37,428 nt of DNA, from the NCBI GenBank assembly GCA_030629775.1, contig DAOVOJ010000002.1, positions 1 to 37,428 of the forward strand, in the 5' to 3' direction. The stretch's first letter is position 1. Each line of letters starts with the position of its first letter. Made by a program: the position numbers and the translations under genes. Positions 27,081-32,574 of the stretch are shown one piece after another. The notes under the pieces were generated by a model. That model was not told the DNA's origin and searched no databases. It saw nothing but the letters and a program-made list of their open reading frames with translations. This DNA comes from Candidatus Moraniibacteriota bacterium (lineage in GTDB: Bacteria > Patescibacteriota > Minisyncoccia > JAHIHE01 > DAOVOJ01).

Positions 27081-27154
27081 GGGCCATTAGCTCAGTTGGT
27101 TAGAGCGCGATCCTTATAAGGTCGATGTCCCTGGTTCAAGTCCAGGATGGCCCA
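27081..27154 (+). tRNA. tRNA-Ile with UAU anticodon
   Basis: Acceptor gggccat/atggccc is perfect. D arm gctc-agttggtta-gagc. Anticodon stem cgatc/ggtcg with loop CT-TAT-AA. T arm cctgg-ttcaagt-ccagg. The body resembles Ile tRNAs. Confidence 0.8.
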
Positions 27155-27232
27155 CAAAAATAATTGAAAGTCCATAAAGTCCGTAAAGTCAAATTAACTT
27201 TTAGAATTTAGGGCAGACACATAGGTCTGCCC

Positions 27233-28531
27233 TTACGAGTGTATTACAAACTCTAAATCCTTCTTTTCTCTTGCTTTGGCTGAATAATGAGCGGTTAATT
27301 GTTGGGCTTTTTTTATTGTCTCGTTTAAAATATTTTCGCCGCGGATTAGAGTGAGCGGTCCGGTGAAATCTTTGAGCTCTATTAAAATATCGTTTTCCTG
27401 AGCGATTTTTTTTATTTTTTTATTTTCCTCATCATTTCTTCCCACGACGATTAAAACATTTTCTTGCCAAAAATGGCGGCCCAGTTTAAGTAGTTCTAAA
27501 TCTGATAAAGTCGGATCTGGTTTTTTTTCTAATAATTTTTTTAAGCGTTCAGAAAAAGCATGATCGGTGAGTAGACATCCGCCGGCAGGGGAGGGGAATT
27601 TGGTAATTTTATATTTTTTTGCCAAGGCTAATTGTTCGCTTCTGCCCCGCCCGCGAATGGCTAAAAATTTGTCTCTTTCAACTAGCCCCATTTTTTCCGC
27701 CTTGGTAGGTTTTAATAATTTAGCCGACAAGGGACGCAAAAGCAAGCCTTCAAGGGAAGATTTTTTTTCAACTAATTCTAAAGCCGCTTTATTTTGGCTC
27801 ATTGGCCGTTCGCCCAGCACTTCGCCGGTGGCAATAAAGTCGCAGTCCTTTTCTTCCATTATTCTTTTCGCTTCTTTTAACATTGCAAGATGACAGTCTA
27901 TGCAGGGATTGAGATGCTTGCCGTAGCCGTAGCGCGGGTTTTTAACTATTTCAAGTTGTTTTTTGCTGAAATTAATTATTTCAAGATGAGATAGAGAACG
28001 AAAATTTTCGTTCCCTACATCATCATTTATAAAAACTGATTTAAAGTAAAGAGGAATCACTTTAACATTCTGTTCCTCCAATAATTTCAAAGCAAGAATT
28101 GAATCCAATCCGCCCGAGAAAAGGAGCAGGAAACAAAAATTTTCGTTCCTTACATAATTTCTTAACAAAAACAATCCCGCGGCAAAAATTCCAAGACTGT
28201 CCATAACAACATCTCGCAGACATCCTTCTCGTCCCGGAACAAAAGTCTGGTGGTATTCGTCGGTGAGGGAATAAATTAAAGCAAAAATTATAGCGGAGGA
28301 AACTGATTTTTTTCTGGAAAAACCGTTGCTTCTGAAATAAGCTCTAAACAAAAGAAAAGTCAGAATGGCGTATTCGGTAATGTGCGCCAGTTTGCGAAAT
28401 AATAGATCCACTTCAGAGGACAGGTCTGATTTTAAATAGGGTTGATCGGAGAAAAAATAAATTACCCCGCACCAGAACAGGACTGGAAGCCAGAGTTTGA
28501 AAATAATAATTGTTTTTTTATTGGAAGCCAT
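27233..28531 (-). CDS. Fusion protein: N-terminal VanZ-like membrane domain + C-terminal PP-loop ATP pyrophosphatase (ThiI/MnmA-like)
   Basis: N-terminal part: KLAHITEYAILTFLL and DEYHQTFVPGREGCLRDVVMDSLG (VanZ pattern). C-terminal part: LLFSGGLDS (SGGxDS PP-loop), NPCIDCH, ATGEVLGERPMSQ and LRPLSAKLL. Confidence 0.7.
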   Translation of the reverse strand: MASNKKTIIIFKLWLPVLFWCGVIYFFSDQPYLKSDLSSEVDLLFRKLAHITEYAILTFLLFRAYFRSNGFSRKKSVSSAIIFALIYSLTDEYHQTFVPGREGCLRDVVMDSLGIFAAGLFLLRNYVRNENFCFLLLFSGGLDSILALKLLEEQNVKVIPLYFKSVFINDDVGNENFRSLSHLEIINFSKKQLEIVKNPRYGYGKHLNPCIDCHLAMLKEAKRIMEEKDCDFIATGEVLGERPMSQNKAALELVEKKSSLEGLLLRPLSAKLLKPTKAEKMGLVERDKFLAIRGRGRSEQLALAKKYKITKFPSPAGGCLLTDHAFSERLKKLLEKKPDPTLSDLELLKLGRHFWQENVLIVVGRNDEENKKIKKIAQENDILIELKDFTGPLTLIRGENILNETIKKAQQLTAHYSAKAREKKDLEFVIHS

Positions 28532-30257: not shown

Positions 30258-30385
30258 TAATATGGAACTTATAACTCATAACCTGGAACTTATAACCTGG
30301 AACTCATAACTTATGACTCATAACTTAGAACTTAATAATCTTATAAATAAGTTCCAAGTTTTAAATTCCAAGTTTCATGTTTCAT
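30258..30385. repeat. GGAACTT/ATAACTT-word imperfect hairpin
   Basis: ggaacttataactcataacctggaacttataacctggaactcataactt ... ataagttccaagttttaaattccaagtttcatgtttcat. Confidence 0.75.
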
Positions 30386-30886: not shown

Positions 30887-30953
30887 ATTAGTAGTATTAA
30901 GTATCAAGTATTAAGTATCAAGCGCTTGATACTTAATACTAGCCGCTTAATAC
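30878..30953. repeat. AGTATTAAGTATCAAG-word hairpin
   Basis: gtagtattaagtatcaagtattaagtatcaagcgcttgatacttaatact. Related arrays lie at 28533-28570, 34571-34615 and 35991-36056. Confidence 0.8.
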
Positions 30954-31105
30954 TGTCTCTTGGCGGGCTACATCGGACTGGAACCATGATTCCAGCAAAG
31001 TATATTAAGCTTTTTCAGTATACCATTCAATAGGGTCCTCGTGTACTTTTTACTTTAAGAAAGTAGCATTGAGAGGATTGGCCTTAGTTTTGTGTGTCGA
31101 GTGAA

Positions 31106-31681
31106 CTACATTTGAATACGAACCCAATCTTTGATATGCAATTTGAAACGTAATATTTCGTCCTCTTCTAAAATTGAGCTGTGCGCAATGGGCCTTCTCA
31201 GAACATTAAGTGTATTGAGTGTCTGTTTAACTGATTCCACACTGCGATATGTATCAGAAAAAATATCCCAATTTTCTTCAATTATATCAAATAGATCCTT
31301 AAAATCTGTATAATATATTGGCTCTTCTGAACGTTCTGAAAAGGGAGTGTCCTTTTCCTGTGTCCGTCTTACTTCCACCTTTCTTTTAACATTATCGGGC
31401 ACCTTAATTTCCCACCAATTTTCTCCGCTAATTTCTTTAAGTCTGTTGATAATGGTATTTCTGATTGAATTCTCAAGACAAAAATACAAATAATATAATT
31501 CTCCCATTTGTTTTGCTTGTTGCCTGATCTTTATCTCAAAAACCTCTGTATCGATAATTTCATCTCGTTTTAGGGTTTGAGAATGTCTTATATCAAGTCC
31601 ACTTTTTTCTAGGTCTGAGAGTTCAGATTCTAAAAGTAAATTTTGCACCCCGAATAATTTTAATCGTTTATCAAAAATCAT
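31106..31681 (-). CDS. Swt1-type HEPN domain protein (predicted RNase)
   Basis: Motifs LENSIRNTIINRL, GENWW and YYTDFKDLFDIIEENWDIF. The HEPN catalytic motif Rx4H is present as RRPIAH (residues 162-167, nt 31181-31198). Confidence 0.7.
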   Translation of the reverse strand: MIFDKRLKLFGVQNLLLESELSDLEKSGLDIRHSQTLKRDEIIDTEVFEIKIRQQAKQMGELYYLYFCLENSIRNTIINRLKEISGENWWEIKVPDNVKRKVEVRRTQEKDTPFSERSEEPIYYTDFKDLFDIIEENWDIFSDTYRSVESVKQTLNTLNVLRRPIAHSSILEEDEILRFKLHIKDWVRIQM

Positions 31682-31684
31682 ATA

Positions 31685-32317
31685 TTATTCGTTATCAATA
31701 ATATTTTTCTTCAAACTTTTGAATATCGCATCAAAAACTTTAATTTCGGTAGTAGCAGGCAAATTAAGATTTATCGTATAAGAAATACCAAATTTTACGT
31801 TATCTCCAGAAGAAATTTTTTTAGAGGGAATTGTCTCTTCTGTTTCGTTTTCCTTATCCTCACCTATATCTTCGGGAATATCTTCAAGCTCAAACGTTGC
31901 GTGTTTTTTTAACTCTATAAAAGTACCTACAACAGCGGTGAGTGACGTATCATTTTTTGACGCTCCTGTTCTTGTGGCAACTAGGTCAATAAGCTCTTGC
32001 TTTTGTAATTTTTGCGCATATTCATTTCCGTCATATAAATCTGAATATGCTTCTTTCATTGCTTTAGCCATTATAAAACCAGATTTACTATCTGAACGAA
32101 AATCTTTGTACCTTTGAGTTGGTACTCCTGATTGATCCAAAAATCCCAGACGTTTCAGAAAGGGGATCATTGGATGATAACTAGAAGATTTTAATCCTAG
32201 AACCATAGAAAGATAATCACGAGTGACTTTAGTAGGAACACTTGCGGTTTTTATTTTCTCAAGAAGCTTAGTAAGGCTTCCATAAGCATTAACAAAGGGG
32301 GGATATTTAGCTGACAT
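31685..32317 (-). CDS. DUF5343-like protein with acidic linker and short C-terminal module
   Basis: PPFVNAYGSLTKLLEKIKTASVPTKVTRDYL and FLKRLGFLDQSGVPTQRY resemble DUF5343. The stop lies 3 nt from the HEPN gene ATG. Confidence 0.6.
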   Translation of the reverse strand: MSAKYPPFVNAYGSLTKLLEKIKTASVPTKVTRDYLSMVLGLKSSSYHPMIPFLKRLGFLDQSGVPTQRYKDFRSDSKSGFIMAKAMKEAYSDLYDGNEYAQKLQKQELIDLVATRTGASKNDTSLTAVVGTFIELKKHATFELEDIPEDIGEDKENETEETIPSKKISSGDNVKFGISYTINLNLPATTEIKVFDAIFKSLKKNIIDNE

Positions 32318-32372
32318 AATTATTTAAATTAAGTTAATAAATAATACGTATGGTTTTTGTGCTAGCACGATG

Positions 32373-32461
32373 TGGCGGAGAGAGAGGGATTTGAACCCCC
32401 GGTCCGCAAAGCAGACAATGGTTTTCGAAACCATCCCGTTAAACCGCTCCGGCATCTCTCC
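32373..32461 (-). tRNA. tRNA-Ser (anticodon CGA), type II, with encoded CCA
   Basis: Reverse complement: ggagaga...atggt-TT-CGA-AA-accat, a long variable arm, T arm ggggg-ttcaaat-ccctc, acceptor tctctcc, then g-CCA. Confidence 0.85.
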
Positions 32462-32574
32462 AGTCGTGTGGGCGTATAATGTATAACATATAACGAAAAT
32501 CTAAATTCAGGTTACACATTCTACCTTTCTATTCTAAACCAAAAACAATATTCGTCAATGCGGGCGGACTTTGA

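What the first reader, a model, noticed from the sequence alone, without database searches (positions are those of the whole stretch)
30961..32461. Two-gene cassette next to tRNA-Ser: DUF5343-like protein plus Swt1-type HEPN RNase, a candidate uncharacterised defence or toxin module
- **Gene arrangement:** two minus-strand genes are translationally coupled. The stop at 31685-31687 and the ATG at 31681 are 3 nt apart.
- **Downstream product (191 aa):** it carries the Swt1-type HEPN pattern (LENSIRN helix, GENWW, YYTDFKDL..IIEENWDIF). It also has the catalytic Rx4H motif RRPIAH at nt 31181-31198.
- **Upstream product (210 aa):** it looks DUF5343-like (PPFVNAYGSL..VPTKVTRDYL..FLKRLGFLDQSGVPTQRY). 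An acidic linker and a short tail (FGISYTINLNLPATTEIKVFDAIFKSLKKN) follow.
- **Known biology:** HEPN domains are metal-independent RNases. They recur as the toxic effector of toxin-antitoxin, abortive-infection and CRISPR-accessory systems.
- **What is unusual here:** the usual HEPN partners (MNT nucleotidyltransferase, a classical antitoxin) are absent. The partner is a domain of unknown function.
- **Context:** the pair begins 56 nt beyond the 3' end of tRNA-Ser(CGA), a classic integration hotspot, in an otherwise housekeeping neighbourhood. About 200 nt of non-coding DNA lies on the far side.
- **Why it matters:** a HEPN-based immunity or addiction module with a DUF5343 sensor or antitoxin would be new, to my knowledge.
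Basis: partly seen in the sequence, partly recalled or inferred. Interest (0 to 1): 0.8.

Follow-up and report, generated by a model that had tools for sequence, protein, structure and literature searches.

The report
Catalogued DUF5343–HEPN RNase candidate defence pair
The two genes are a real, strictly conserved pair, an unknown-function protein plus a predicted RNA-cutting enzyme, sitting on a tiny mobile insert at a tRNA gene; the pair is already listed as an untested phage-defence candidate (PDC-M34), so this copy is not a new kind of system, though how the pair works is still unknown.

Summary
ORF A (31685-32317, minus strand, 210 aa) is DUF5343 (E 2.5e-44). ORF B (31106-31681, 191 aa) is a Swt1-type HEPN (E 1.1e-11) with an invariant Rx4H motif. 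Three bases separate them, and the pair starts 55 nt after tRNA-Ser(CGA).

The claim of newness does not hold. Both proteins match PADLOC's PDC-M34A and PDC-M34B over their full length. PDC-M34 is one of 145 untested "phage defence candidates" (Payne et al. 2024 preprint).

New here:
- The HEPN gene follows A on the same strand in 79 of 80 species loci from Bacteria and Archaea, usually with overlapping stop and start codons. No third gene is conserved.
- A's last 30 residues are the most conserved part of the module (79% against about 50% pairwise identity).
- The DUF5343 N-domain is also found fused to a Ser/Thr kinase, beside a canonical pair and a TIR gene.
- The cassette is a 1.4-kb unit with no integrase, bounded by the tRNA-Ser 3' end and an orphan tRNA-like fragment at 30961-30985. 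Related genomes carry the same unit with different outside genes.
- dN/dS is about 0.07 for both genes.

Most likely it is a mobile toxin/regulator or abortive-infection module. Activity, trigger and the contact between the two proteins are untested.

The parts
32373..32461 (-). tRNA-Ser(CGA). Its 3' end is the left boundary of the inserted unit.
   Evidence: ARAGORN and Rfam tRNA at 55 bits. Its 3' 19 nt are identical to a site in sister locus L001.
32531..32558 (-). Sigma-70-like promoter match (TTGACG-16-TAGAAT) upstream of tRNA-Ser. It may drive the tRNA and the cassette as one transcript.
   Evidence: No promoter-like or terminator-like site lies between the tRNA and ORF A. This is a consensus match only, so co-transcription is inferred.
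32318..32372 (-). 55-nt spacer between the tRNA 3' end and ORF A. It belongs to the conserved unit.
   Evidence: It aligns with the 52-54-nt spacers of L001 and L178 (alignment A10).
31685..32317 (-). ORF A, 210 aa: DUF5343 / PDC-M34A protein, the putative regulator, sensor or antitoxin.
   Evidence: Pfam E 2.5e-44. PADLOC PDLC04589 E 1.8e-51. 1148 relatives found and 2332 representatives at 50% identity. dN/dS 0.068 against L001.
31883..32299 (-). DUF5343 N-terminal domain of A (residues 7-145). The model shows three helices and a short hairpin, then a helical bundle.
   Evidence: AF2 model with pLDDT above 90 over this range and the DSSP order of elements. No significant PDB or BFVD fold match. 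The same domain is fused to a Ser/Thr kinase in P0351.
31790..31882 (-). Disordered linker of A (residues 146-176). It is acidic in this copy.
   Evidence: pLDDT below 50 for residues 152-176. Across 77 homologues its length is 22-40 residues and its net charge -9 to +4.
31688..31789 (-). Near-invariant C-terminal tail of A (residues 177-210: GISYTINLNLPATTEIKVFDAIFKSLKKNIIDNE). It is the putative docking or neutralising peptide.
   Evidence: S179 to T190 and V194, F195, I198, F199, S201, L202 are invariant in the 22-sequence alignment. Most stay invariant or nearly so in the 59-sequence set. Mean pairwise identity is 0.79 for the tail and 0.48 for the N-domain. No Pfam family, including RHH families, matches it.
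31106..31681 (-). ORF B, 191 aa: Swt1-type HEPN / PDC-M34B protein, the putative RNase effector or toxin.
   Evidence: Pfam E 1.1e-11. PADLOC PDLC04592 E 4.4e-44. 4707 relatives by profile search. dN/dS 0.072. AF2 model is all-alpha with pLDDT 86.
31181..31198 (-). Rx4H catalytic motif RRPIAH (R162...H167).
   Evidence: R162, A166 and H167 are invariant in 49 and in 62 aligned partners.
31496..31681 (-). N-terminal extension of B (residues 1-62), outside the Pfam HEPN core. Helix 2-26 has one conserved face (F10, N14, E18, L21, E25).
   Evidence: No Pfam match. Its role as a docking surface for the tail of A is inferred.
30986..31105 (-). Right flank of the unit: non-coding DNA homologous to the right flanks in sister loci.
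   Evidence: Alignment A9 of the window, L001 (two copies) and L178. Rfam finds no RNA family here above chance.
30961..30985 (-). Orphan tRNA-like 3' fragment (GGTTCCAGTCCGATGTAGCCCGCCA: T-loop, acceptor 3' strand and CCA), in the same orientation as tRNA-Ser. It is the right boundary of the 1412-bp unit.
   Evidence: The pattern GGTTCNANTCC-N11-CCA matches only here and at the true tRNA-Ser 3' end in 37 kb. Chance expectation is 0.02. Homologous ...CCCGC(C)A ends occur in L001 and L178.

Best explanation
The cassette is a member of the catalogued but untested PDC-M34 family. I read it as a self-contained, horizontally mobile two-protein conflict module.

**ORF B** is the effector. It is a metal-independent HEPN RNase whose Rx4H site is intact and under purifying selection. 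Unchecked, it would cut cellular and/or phage RNA and arrest growth.

**ORF A** is its cognate controller. It is made just before B through stop/start coupling, which should keep the two proteins in a fixed ratio.
- Its near-invariant C-terminal strand-plus-amphipathic-helix peptide hangs on a disordered tether. I propose it docks on B and keeps it silent, probably on B's conserved N-terminal helix or across the HEPN active-site cleft.
- Its DUF5343 N-domain is the input module. Its helix-helix-helix-hairpin start is consistent with a winged-helix nucleic-acid binder. It would sense a trigger such as phage nucleic acid or protein, or loss of A itself, and release the RNase.

**The pair rides on a 1.4-kb unit without an integrase,** inserted at the 3' end of tRNA-Ser. 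It is probably expressed by read-through from the tRNA promoter.

**Shown:**
- the domain identities;
- conservation of the catalytic residues;
- the obligatory gene order and stop/start overlap;
- co-divergence of A and B;
- conservation of the tail;
- the patchy spread across domains of life;
- purifying selection on both genes;
- the boundaries of the insert;
- re-use of the DUF5343 domain with a kinase.

**Inferred:**
- RNase activity;
- toxicity;
- physical binding of A to B, and whether A inhibits or activates;
- the trigger;
- any anti-phage effect.
For: - **Family match:** Pfam and PADLOC matches are full-length.
- **Adjacency:** the HEPN gene lies immediately downstream on the same strand in 79 of 80 GTDB species loci from many bacterial and archaeal phyla. 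Most junctions overlap (ATGA, GTGA or ATGANTAA).
- **Two genes only:** no other gene recurs among the neighbours.
- **Catalytic residues:** R162, H167, E70, R74, W89 and W90 are invariant.
- **Selection and co-divergence:** dN/dS is 0.068 for A and 0.072 for B. Pairwise identities of A and B correlate at r = 0.91.
- **Tail:** it is the most conserved segment, at 0.79 pairwise identity against about 0.5 elsewhere. The AF2 model shows a folded domain, a disordered linker, then an extended segment and a helix.
- **Accessory distribution:**
  - the tail-bearing protein was found in 422 of 185,579 species genomes;
  - it is absent from 80 relatives found through GlmS;
  - its neighbourhoods vary and include R-M genes, PemK, ThsB-TIR, MADS genes, Cas1 and RtcR/RtcB.
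- **Independent defence link:** Payne et al. found the cassette embedded in BREX, DISARM or type I R-M systems.
- **Module swapping:** P0351 joins the DUF5343 N-domain to a Ser/Thr kinase. Its N-domain is 38% identical to that of a canonical pair 2.6 kb away, and a TIR protein and an IS110 transposase lie nearby.
- **Mobility:**
  - homology between the window and L001 stops exactly at the cassette plus tRNA-Ser fragments;
  - L178 has the cassette 54 nt after tRNA-Ser(gga), with different outside genes;
  - L055 has it between tRNA-Ala and a 63-nt partial copy of that tRNA;
  - a tRNA lies within 350 bp in 8 of 79 loci, against 0.95 expected (P = 5e-6).
Against: - **No experiment** exists for any family member.
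- **No fold confirmation:**
  - Foldseek gave no significant match for either model, and no HEPN structure appeared among the hits for B (best E about 1);
  - HEPN identity therefore rests on the sequence profile and motif;
  - the winged-helix reading of A rests only on the order of secondary-structure elements.
- **No test of A-B contact:** I could not run a complex prediction.
- **The tail may serve another purpose:** it is more conserved than B itself. That is unexpected for a peptide whose only job is to bind B, and it may point to a universal partner or to self-assembly instead.
- **Weak defence context:** only about 10 of 145 immediate neighbours are defence-related, and many loci, this window included, are housekeeping.
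- **Not seen on known mobile replicons:**
  - there was no match in 72,556 plasmids or 50,697 phage genomes;
  - there was no match in PHROGs;
  - this is unusual for a classical addiction module.
- **Kinase caveat:** the kinase fusion is a single representative among the 150 shown. Its PD-T4-6 match may only reflect a generic Hanks-type kinase domain.
Confidence: 0.6

Rival explanations
1. It is a plain type II toxin-antitoxin addiction module with no immune role. A is a labile antitoxin that represses its own operon and blocks B by direct binding. The pair only stabilises the small insert it sits on.
For: - The layout is classic: an upstream small regulator with a folded N-domain, a disordered linker and a C-terminal peptide, followed by a coupled downstream nuclease.
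- It sits on a repeat-bounded mini-island.
- Many loci have no defence neighbours.
- HEPN is split while A is intact in 2 loci (L054, L082), and the reverse was never seen. The numbers are small, and the splits may be assembly errors.
Against: - There were no copies in 72,556 plasmids.
- A is as conserved as B and its tail more so, whereas antitoxins usually evolve faster than their toxins.
- The DUF5343 domain is re-used with a kinase in a TIR-containing locus.
- Embedding in BREX, DISARM or R-M systems was the basis of the PDC listing.
- DNA binding by A is unproven.
Confidence: 0.2
2. A activates B rather than inhibiting it. B alone is inert, and A switches it on after its DUF5343 domain binds a trigger, as sensor domains do in CARF-HEPN or CBS-HEPN proteins.
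For: - The DUF5343 N-domain behaves as a swappable input domain joined to different effectors.
- It carries many invariant polar residues (N10, K30, S44, S46, K55, D61, T67, R74, Y91, D123), which suggests a ligand or nucleic-acid site.
- Validated HEPN defence proteins use fused sensor domains (DS-11).
Against: - The split-HEPN/intact-A asymmetry and the tight translational coupling fit neutralisation at least as well.
- No data bear on the direction of control.
Confidence: 0.15
3. It is a housekeeping RNA-processing pair, for example in tRNA or rRNA maturation. That would explain its position next to tRNA genes.
For: - It lies next to tRNA genes in several genomes.
- It may be co-transcribed with tRNA-Ser.
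- HEPN domains do have core RNA-processing roles, such as Las1.
Against: - It is present in only about 0.2% of species genomes.
- It is absent from the 80 nearest relatives sampled.
- The adjacent tRNA differs from locus to locus (Ser, Gln, Arg, Ala, Pro, Thr).
- The junctions look like insertion scars.
Confidence: 0.04
4. The two proteins serve the mobility of the mini-island itself, for example site recognition at tRNA 3' ends by A, rather than conflict.
For: - The unit has no integrase yet recurs at tRNA 3' ends with conserved ends.
- A may have a nucleic-acid-binding fold.
Against: - Neither protein resembles any recombinase, transposase or excisionase family in Pfam, NCBIfam, PHROGs or PADLOC.
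- Most loci (about 70 of 79) are not next to a tRNA.
- An RNase active site under selection has no obvious role in DNA transposition.
Confidence: 0.03

Closest known systems
PDC-M34 (PADLOC-DB v2.0.0 phage defence candidate; Payne et al. 2024 preprint, doi 10.1101/2024.01.29.577857)
   Same: Both proteins match the M34A and M34B HMMs over their full length (E 1.8e-51 and 4.4e-44), in the catalogued A>>B order.
   Different: Nothing differs at family level. This is a Patescibacteria-like, tRNA-adjacent copy. The family itself is untested, and I found no text that describes it.
HEPN-MNT toxin-antitoxin modules (type VII TA; listed in PADLOC as PDC-M05-like)
   Same: It is a two-gene module with a HEPN RNase as the toxic partner, and it spreads across Bacteria and Archaea.
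   Different: The partner is not a minimal nucleotidyltransferase. A matches only DUF5343, so neutralisation by AMPylation is not expected. The HEPN belongs to the Swt1/Abi2 branch, not the branch that pairs with nucleotidyltransferases.
Abi2 / AbiD / AbiF abortive-infection HEPN proteins
   Same: They belong to the same Abi2/Swt1 assemblage of HEPN domains, with an active Rx4-6H motif and links to defence.
   Different: [quoted passage not shown] Here there is no Abi_2 or AbiD/F HMM match and no Rfam hit next to the genes. A protein partner is obligatory instead.
Classical type II toxin-antitoxin operons (antitoxin with a DNA-binding N-domain and a disordered C-terminal toxin-binding peptide)
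   Same: The gene order, small size, stop/start coupling, the folded-domain/linker/peptide layout of A and the nuclease partner all fit.
   Different: The upstream protein is as conserved as the nuclease and its tail is nearly invariant. No plasmid copies were found. DNA binding and neutralisation are untested.
Sensor-HEPN defence proteins (CARF-HEPN Csm6/Csx1; CBS-HEPN DS-11)
   Same: A HEPN RNase is governed by a separate input domain.
   Different: Here the input and the effector are separate polypeptides. The input domain, DUF5343, has no known ligand and no fold match.
tRNA-targeting genomic islands
   Same: The insert lies at the 3' end of a tRNA gene and has a tRNA-derived fragment at its far end. 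A sister genome shows tandem accretion of islands at the same tRNA.
   Different: The unit is only 1.4 kb and carries no integrase. The two bounding copies share only the T-loop and the CCGCCA end (15 of 25 nt), not an identical core.

Membership tests
PDC-M34 (PADLOC candidate system) | A protein matching a PDC-M34A HMM | tested here: met
   PDLC04589, E 1.8e-51, residues 7-206 on profile positions 6-207 of 208.
PDC-M34 (PADLOC candidate system) | A protein matching a PDC-M34B HMM | tested here: met
   PDLC04592, E 4.4e-44, residues 5-188 on profile positions 4-188 of 192.
PDC-M34 (PADLOC candidate system) | The two genes are adjacent, on the same strand, in the order A then B | tested here: met
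   There is a 3-nt gap and both genes are on the minus strand. The catalogue entry is FAM_01148>>FAM_01657.
PDC-M34 (PADLOC candidate system) | Anti-phage activity | not testable with these tools
   The source paper lists PDC systems as untested. DefensePredictor excluded them as unvalidated.
HEPN superfamily, Swt1-like branch | Profile match above the curated threshold | tested here: met
   PF18731, 45.4 bits against a cutoff of 27.5, E 1.1e-11.
HEPN superfamily, Swt1-like branch | Conserved Rx4-6H catalytic motif | tested here: met
   R162 and H167 are invariant in 49 and in 62 partners.
HEPN superfamily, Swt1-like branch | Structural similarity to a solved HEPN helical bundle | tested here: inconclusive
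   The AF2 model is all-alpha with pLDDT 86. Foldseek against the PDB returned no HEPN structure and no hit with E below 0.8. The PDB sequence-profile search found nothing.
HEPN superfamily, Swt1-like branch | Metal-independent RNase activity | not testable with these tools
   This needs biochemistry.
DUF5343 (PF17278) | Profile match above the curated threshold | tested here: met
   151.4 bits against a cutoff of 27, E 2.5e-44, profile positions 1-138 of 140.
Type II toxin-antitoxin | Small, co-directional, translationally coupled gene pair with a nuclease-type toxin | tested here: met
Type II toxin-antitoxin | Antitoxin with a recognised DNA-binding domain (HTH, RHH, AbrB or Phd type) | tested here: inconclusive
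   No Pfam DNA-binding family matches A or its tail. Only the order of helices and hairpin in the AF2 model looks like a winged helix. There is no fold match.
Type II toxin-antitoxin | Toxicity of the toxin, neutralised by direct binding of the antitoxin | not testable with these tools
   No complex prediction or experiment was possible.
HEPN-MNT (type VII TA) | The partner is a minimal nucleotidyltransferase | tested here: not met
   A has no nucleotidyltransferase match in Pfam, NCBIfam or PADLOC.
AbiD/AbiF (Abi_2) | Match to Abi_2 or AbiD/F models | tested here: not met
   Only the HEPN_Swt1 and PDC-M34B models match B, plus a marginal PD-T4-5 hit at E 0.0018.
tRNA-targeting integrative island | Insertion abutting the 3' end of a tRNA gene | tested here: met
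   The cassette starts 55 nt from tRNA-Ser(cga). The same junction occurs with tRNA-Ser(gga) in L178 and with a tRNA-Ser remnant in L001.
tRNA-targeting integrative island | A direct repeat or tRNA-derived fragment at the distal end | tested here: met
   The orphan T-loop/acceptor/CCA fragment lies at 30961-30985, with a chance expectation of 0.02. L055 has a 63-nt partial tRNA copy. The two copies in the window share no long identical core.
tRNA-targeting integrative island | An integrase encoded by the element | tested here: not met
   The 1412-bp unit holds only A and B. Neither matches a recombinase family.

The most novel reading that the evidence does not exclude
DUF5343 is a previously undescribed immune input domain. 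It is re-used with different effectors: a separate Swt1-type HEPN RNase held through an almost invariant 30-residue C-terminal peptide, or a fused Ser/Thr kinase. The RNase version travels between Bacteria and Archaea as a 1.4-kb miniature island that targets tRNA genes and depends on an integrase supplied by other islands at the same tRNA.
Probability: 0.3. Interest if true: 0.65.

Novelty: new member of a known kind. Interest (0 to 1): 0.42.

Why it matters
Taken alone, this copy adds one more instance of a candidate system that is already searchable in PADLOC.

**Value for experiments.** This work makes an uncharacterised family tractable:
- It gives the minimal unit: two genes, 1.2 kb.
- It names residues to mutate: R162 and H167, and the SYTINLNLPATT...VFxAIFKSL tail.
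- It proposes a testable architecture: input domain, tether, docking peptide and RNase.
- It provides a natural comparison, the DUF5343-kinase fusion.

**If defence is confirmed.** It would add a HEPN system with a new kind of controller, present in both Bacteria and Archaea, including Patescibacteria-like lineages.

**A separate question.** The integrase-less insert at tRNA-Ser raises the question of how very small defence or toxin-antitoxin cargoes are mobilised.

Tried and rejected
- **Complex prediction.** A and B share a frame, so I tried the natural A*YB read-through. The alignment tool refuses sequences with a stop codon, so there is no model of the interface.
- **Fold searches.**
  - Foldseek of both AF2 models against the PDB, and of A against BFVD, gave nothing significant.
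  - A gave recurrent hits at probability below 0.1 to DEAH/Ski2-type RNA helicases (Prp2, Prp22, DHX36, Mtr4). I treat that only as a lead.
- **PDB sequence-profile searches.** No relatives were found.
- **Ribbon-helix-helix idea for the tail.** The strand, "LP" and helix resemble an RHH by eye, but no Pfam match appeared even at E up to 10. I dropped the idea.
- **Phage and plasmid carriage.**
  - tblastn of A found no match in 50,697 phage genomes or 72,556 plasmids.
  - There was no PHROG family match.
  - Only 7 IMG/VR contigs carry a relative of A. The one I examined, L091, has an intact pair.
- **Empty-site comparison.**
  - 80 relatives found through GlmS (59-79% identity) keep the GlmS-MurA-GlmU side.
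  - None of them has tRNA-Ser, DUF4446 or the cassette upstream.
  - No precise empty site could be defined.
- **Exact att duplicate.** No second copy of the tRNA-Ser 3' end exists in the window at up to 3 mismatches, and the repeat finder found none. Only the degenerate tRNA-like fragment turned up.
- **Orphan T-loop scan.** A strict scan of all 79 loci showed no general enrichment: 1 near the cassettes and 14 far from them.
- **Partial-tRNA detection with Rfam.** The tRNA model does not report fragments, even the clear one in L055. The test is uninformative.
- **Third conserved gene.** None exists. The recurrent neighbours are common housekeeping genes.
- **Literature.** Searches for DUF5343, PF17278, HEPN_Swt1 and PDC-M34 returned 0 papers.
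Full report
**1. The observation**

The sequence is as described.
- ORF A runs from 32317 down to 31685 on the minus strand (210 aa). ORF B runs from 31681 down to 31106 (191 aa).
- The junction reads TAA-TAT-ATG, so three bases separate the stop from the start. The two ORFs share a frame.
- tRNA-Ser(cga) lies at 32373-32461 on the same strand, 55 nt upstream of the ATG of A.
- 198 nt of non-coding DNA follow B, before a DUF4446 gene.
- The neighbouring genes are housekeeping: a CCA-adding enzyme, GlmS, a MurA-like gene and a GlmU-like gene.
- The cassette is slightly more AT-rich than its flanks, with GC 0.29-0.36 against 0.38-0.44.

**2. What the two proteins are**

- A matches Pfam DUF5343 (E 2.5e-44). 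B matches HEPN_Swt1 (E 1.1e-11). Both score above the curated cutoffs. NCBIfam adds nothing.
- PADLOC-DB v2 has models for exactly this pair. A matches PDC-M34A (E 1.8e-51) and B matches PDC-M34B (E 4.4e-44), each over its full length.
- PDC stands for "phage defence candidate". Payne et al. (bioRxiv 10.1101/2024.01.29.577857) derived 145 such systems from genes embedded in BREX, DISARM and type I R-M loci. They state that these candidates are untested.
- Their Table S8 lists cassette CAS_00130 (FAM_01148>>FAM_01657), with a count of 97, as PDC-M34. I take that count to be its occurrences in RefSeq v209.
- Later work treats PDCs as unvalidated.
- No paper in the searchable library mentions DUF5343, PF17278, HEPN_Swt1 or PDC-M34 in its text.
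- The pairing is therefore catalogued, not new. It is also uncharacterised.

**3. Is the pairing conserved?**

- A has 1148 detectable relatives and 2332 representatives at 50% identity. B has 4707 relatives by profile search.
- A scan of one genome per species found the tail-bearing A in 422 of 185,579 species.
  - These include Patescibacteria, Acidobacteriota, Bacteroidota, Nitrospirota, Cyanobacteria, Proteobacteria and Planctomycetota.
  - They also include Thaumarchaeota, Bathyarchaeia, Methanosarcinales and others.
- In the 80 loci fetched, a HEPN gene of the same family follows immediately on the same strand in 79. The exception, L026, ends at a contig edge.
- Most junctions overlap (ATGA, GTGA or ATGANTAA), which implies translational coupling.
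- Clustering all the neighbouring ORFs showed no third conserved gene.
- Identities of A and B between loci correlate at r = 0.91.
- Against the 85%-identical homologue in L001, dN/dS is 0.068 for A and 0.072 for B. Both genes are maintained by selection.

**4. Anatomy**

*B (the HEPN protein)*
- R162 and H167 (the Rx4H motif), E70, R74, W89, W90, R117 and W186 are invariant across 49 partners. Most remain so in a second set of 62.
- The AF2 model (pLDDT 86) is all-helical. A helix at residues 2-26 and a long helix at 45-85 precede the Pfam core.
- The first helix has one conserved face (F10, N14, E18, L21, E25).

*A (the DUF5343 protein)*
- The AF2 model (pLDDT 81) has a confident domain over residues 1-145. 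It shows three helices and a short hairpin, an order typical of winged helix-turn-helix domains, followed by a helical bundle.
- A disordered linker (residues 152-176, pLDDT below 50) follows. Then come an extended segment and an amphipathic helix at 192-207.
- The last 30 residues (SYTINLNLPATT..VF.AIFKSL) are nearly invariant. Their mean pairwise identity is 0.79, against 0.48 for the N-domain and 0.50 for B.
- The linker varies in length (22-40 residues) and charge (-9 to +4). Its acidity here is local to this copy.

*What the structure searches did not show*
- Foldseek found no significant PDB or BFVD match for either model. PDB sequence profiles found nothing.
- HEPN identity rests on the sequence profile and motif. 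The winged-helix reading rests on the order of elements only.
- The tail and the N-terminal extension of B match no Pfam family.

**5. Context and mobility**

*Neighbourhoods*
- They are highly variable.
- Some hold defence or toxin genes:
  - a ThsB-TIR gene in L004;
  - a type II R-M system with a PemK toxin in L089;
  - MADS genes, a type I R-M system, Cas1, RtcR and other PDCs among the 145 immediate neighbours.
- Many others are housekeeping.
- A has no match in the phage or plasmid collections or in PHROGs. Seven IMG/VR contigs encode a relative of A.

*tRNA adjacency*
- It recurs. A tRNA lies within 350 bp in 8 of 79 distinct loci, against 0.95 expected (P = 5e-6).
- The tRNAs involved differ: Gln, Arg, Ala, Pro and Thr.

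*The three closest relatives define a discrete unit*
- DNA similarity between the window and L001 is confined to 32324-31107 (80.7%) plus fragments of tRNA-Ser.
- In L001 a tRNA-Ser(cga)-type 3' end is identical to the window's over 19 of 19 nt. It is followed by a 5.4-kb island flanked by 88-nt direct repeats.
- A 14-nt tRNA-Ser remnant then sits 52 nt before A. The cassette itself is bracketed by further repeats.
- In L178 the cassette sits 54 nt after tRNA-Ser(gga), with unrelated outside genes.
- The spacer and the 110-150 nt after B align among all three genomes.

*The right boundary*
- In the window, the right flank ends in an orphan tRNA-like 3' fragment at 30961-30985 (T-loop, acceptor strand and CCA).
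- It is the only match to that pattern in 37 kb apart from tRNA-Ser itself. The chance expectation is 0.02.
- In L055 the cassette lies between tRNA-Ala and a 63-nt partial tRNA copy 1460 nt away.
- The window therefore carries a 1412-bp insert (30961-32372) at the tRNA-Ser 3' end, with no integrase.

*Limits of this evidence*
- No exact att duplicate exists in the window.
- No empty site could be found among 80 relatives identified through GlmS. None of them has the cassette.
- The only strong promoter-like site on the minus strand lies upstream of the tRNA. No terminator-like site lies between the tRNA and A, so co-transcription is plausible but unproven.

**6. A second effector**

- One DUF5343 representative, P0351 (457 aa), replaces the tail with a Ser/Thr kinase domain (Pfam Pkinase, E 8e-33).
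- Its gene lies 2.6 kb from a canonical PDC-M34 pair, near a TIR protein and an IS110 transposase.
- Its N-domain is 38% identical to that of the neighbouring pair, so it is not a recent duplication or an assembly artefact.
- The kinase matches PADLOC PD-T4-6 models. Those models also hit a kinase gene present in every S. thermophilus genome analysed in one study, so I give this match little weight.
- The architecture suggests that the DUF5343 domain is an input module that can be joined to different effectors.

**7. Mechanism**

I consider a toxin/regulator conflict module the most likely reading, with confidence 0.6. B is a HEPN RNase effector. A is its coupled controller, and its invariant tail probably contacts B while its N-domain receives the signal.
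- **Plain addiction module (0.2).** It fits the layout. It sits less easily with the absence from plasmids, the conservation of A and the kinase fusion.
- **A as an activator (0.15).** This cannot be excluded.
- **Housekeeping RNA processing (0.04) and a role in island mobility (0.03).** Both are unlikely, given the patchy distribution and the lack of any recombinase signature.

The tail is more conserved than B. That remains unexplained, and it leaves room for a universal cellular partner or for self-assembly.

**8. Verdict**

- It is a new member of a catalogued but untested candidate family. It is not a new kind of system.
- Its interest lies in the family's unknown mechanism. It also lies in the details found here: the invariant tail, the swappable DUF5343 domain and the integrase-less tRNA-Ser mini-island.

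Noticed in passing
window 30961-30985 (-): An orphan tRNA-like 3' fragment (T-loop, acceptor strand and CCA) lies 121 nt after the HEPN stop, in the same orientation as tRNA-Ser. Together with the tRNA-Ser 3' end it brackets a 1412-bp unit. The finding's start coordinate coincides with it.
   Followed up: yes
L001 2035-9309: This sister locus shows tandem accretion at tRNA-Ser. It has tRNA-Ser(gct) and tRNA-Ser(tga), then a tRNA-Ser(cga)-type 3' end. A 5.4-kb island (Fic, an APH/choline-kinase gene) flanked by 88-nt repeats at 98% identity follows. Next come a 14-nt tRNA remnant and the cassette, which is itself flanked by a 14-nt and a 55-nt repeat. No integrase was recognised.
   Followed up: partly
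L001 2146-2406: A tRNA-Ser 5' half (GGAGAGATGCCAGAGTGG...) lies at 2146-2181, and its matching 3' end lies 225 nt away at 2388-2406. A complete tRNA-Ser(tga) gene sits between them. ARAGORN does not call the outer gene. It could be a disrupted or rearranged tRNA gene.
   Followed up: no
L055 262-324 and 1722-1784: In a Raoultibacter MAG the cassette lies between tRNA-Ala(cgc) and a 63-nt partial tRNA copy (78% identity) 1460 nt away. This is a second example of a two-gene, integrase-less insert at a tRNA.
   Followed up: partly
L181 6001-7374 (GCA_028289345.1, JANQQL010000047.1): A DUF5343 N-domain is fused to a Ser/Thr kinase in place of the conserved tail. The gene lies 2.6 kb from a canonical DUF5343-HEPN pair and near a TIR protein and an IS110 transposase.
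   Followed up: partly
L054 6596-7178; L082 6578-7163: The HEPN gene is split into two overlapping ORFs while the DUF5343 gene is intact. The reverse was never seen among the loci examined. These may be real toxin decay or MAG frameshift errors.
   Followed up: no
immediate neighbours of the cassette in 79 loci (alignment A5): Two of the 145 nearest neighbours are RtcB RNA ligases and one is the regulator RtcR. From my own background knowledge, RtcB reseals the 2',3'-cyclic-phosphate and 5'-OH ends that metal-independent RNases such as HEPN leave. I did not identify which loci carry them.
   Followed up: no
window 27081-27155 (+): A tRNA-Ile with anticodon TAT (UAU). From my own background knowledge, this way of decoding AUA is uncommon in bacteria. 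The same anticodon appears in L053.
   Followed up: no
window 30266-30334 and 30347-30381: Four tandem, overlapping copies with a 14-nt period (AACTTATAACTCATAACCTGGAACTTA) sit next to tRNA-Phe. A 35-nt imperfect inverted partner lies nearby.
   Followed up: no
window 30892-30941: A palindrome with perfect 17-nt arms (TAGTATTAAGTATCAAG / CTTGATACTTAATACTA), inside a 31-nt imperfect one, overlaps the start of the DUF4446 gene. It gives only spurious microRNA-like Rfam hits.
   Followed up: no
window 27233-28531 (-): A 432-aa protein combines a VanZ-like domain, a ThiI/tRNA-methyltransferase-like domain and an NFACT-R RNA-binding domain. This is an unusual architecture.
   Followed up: no
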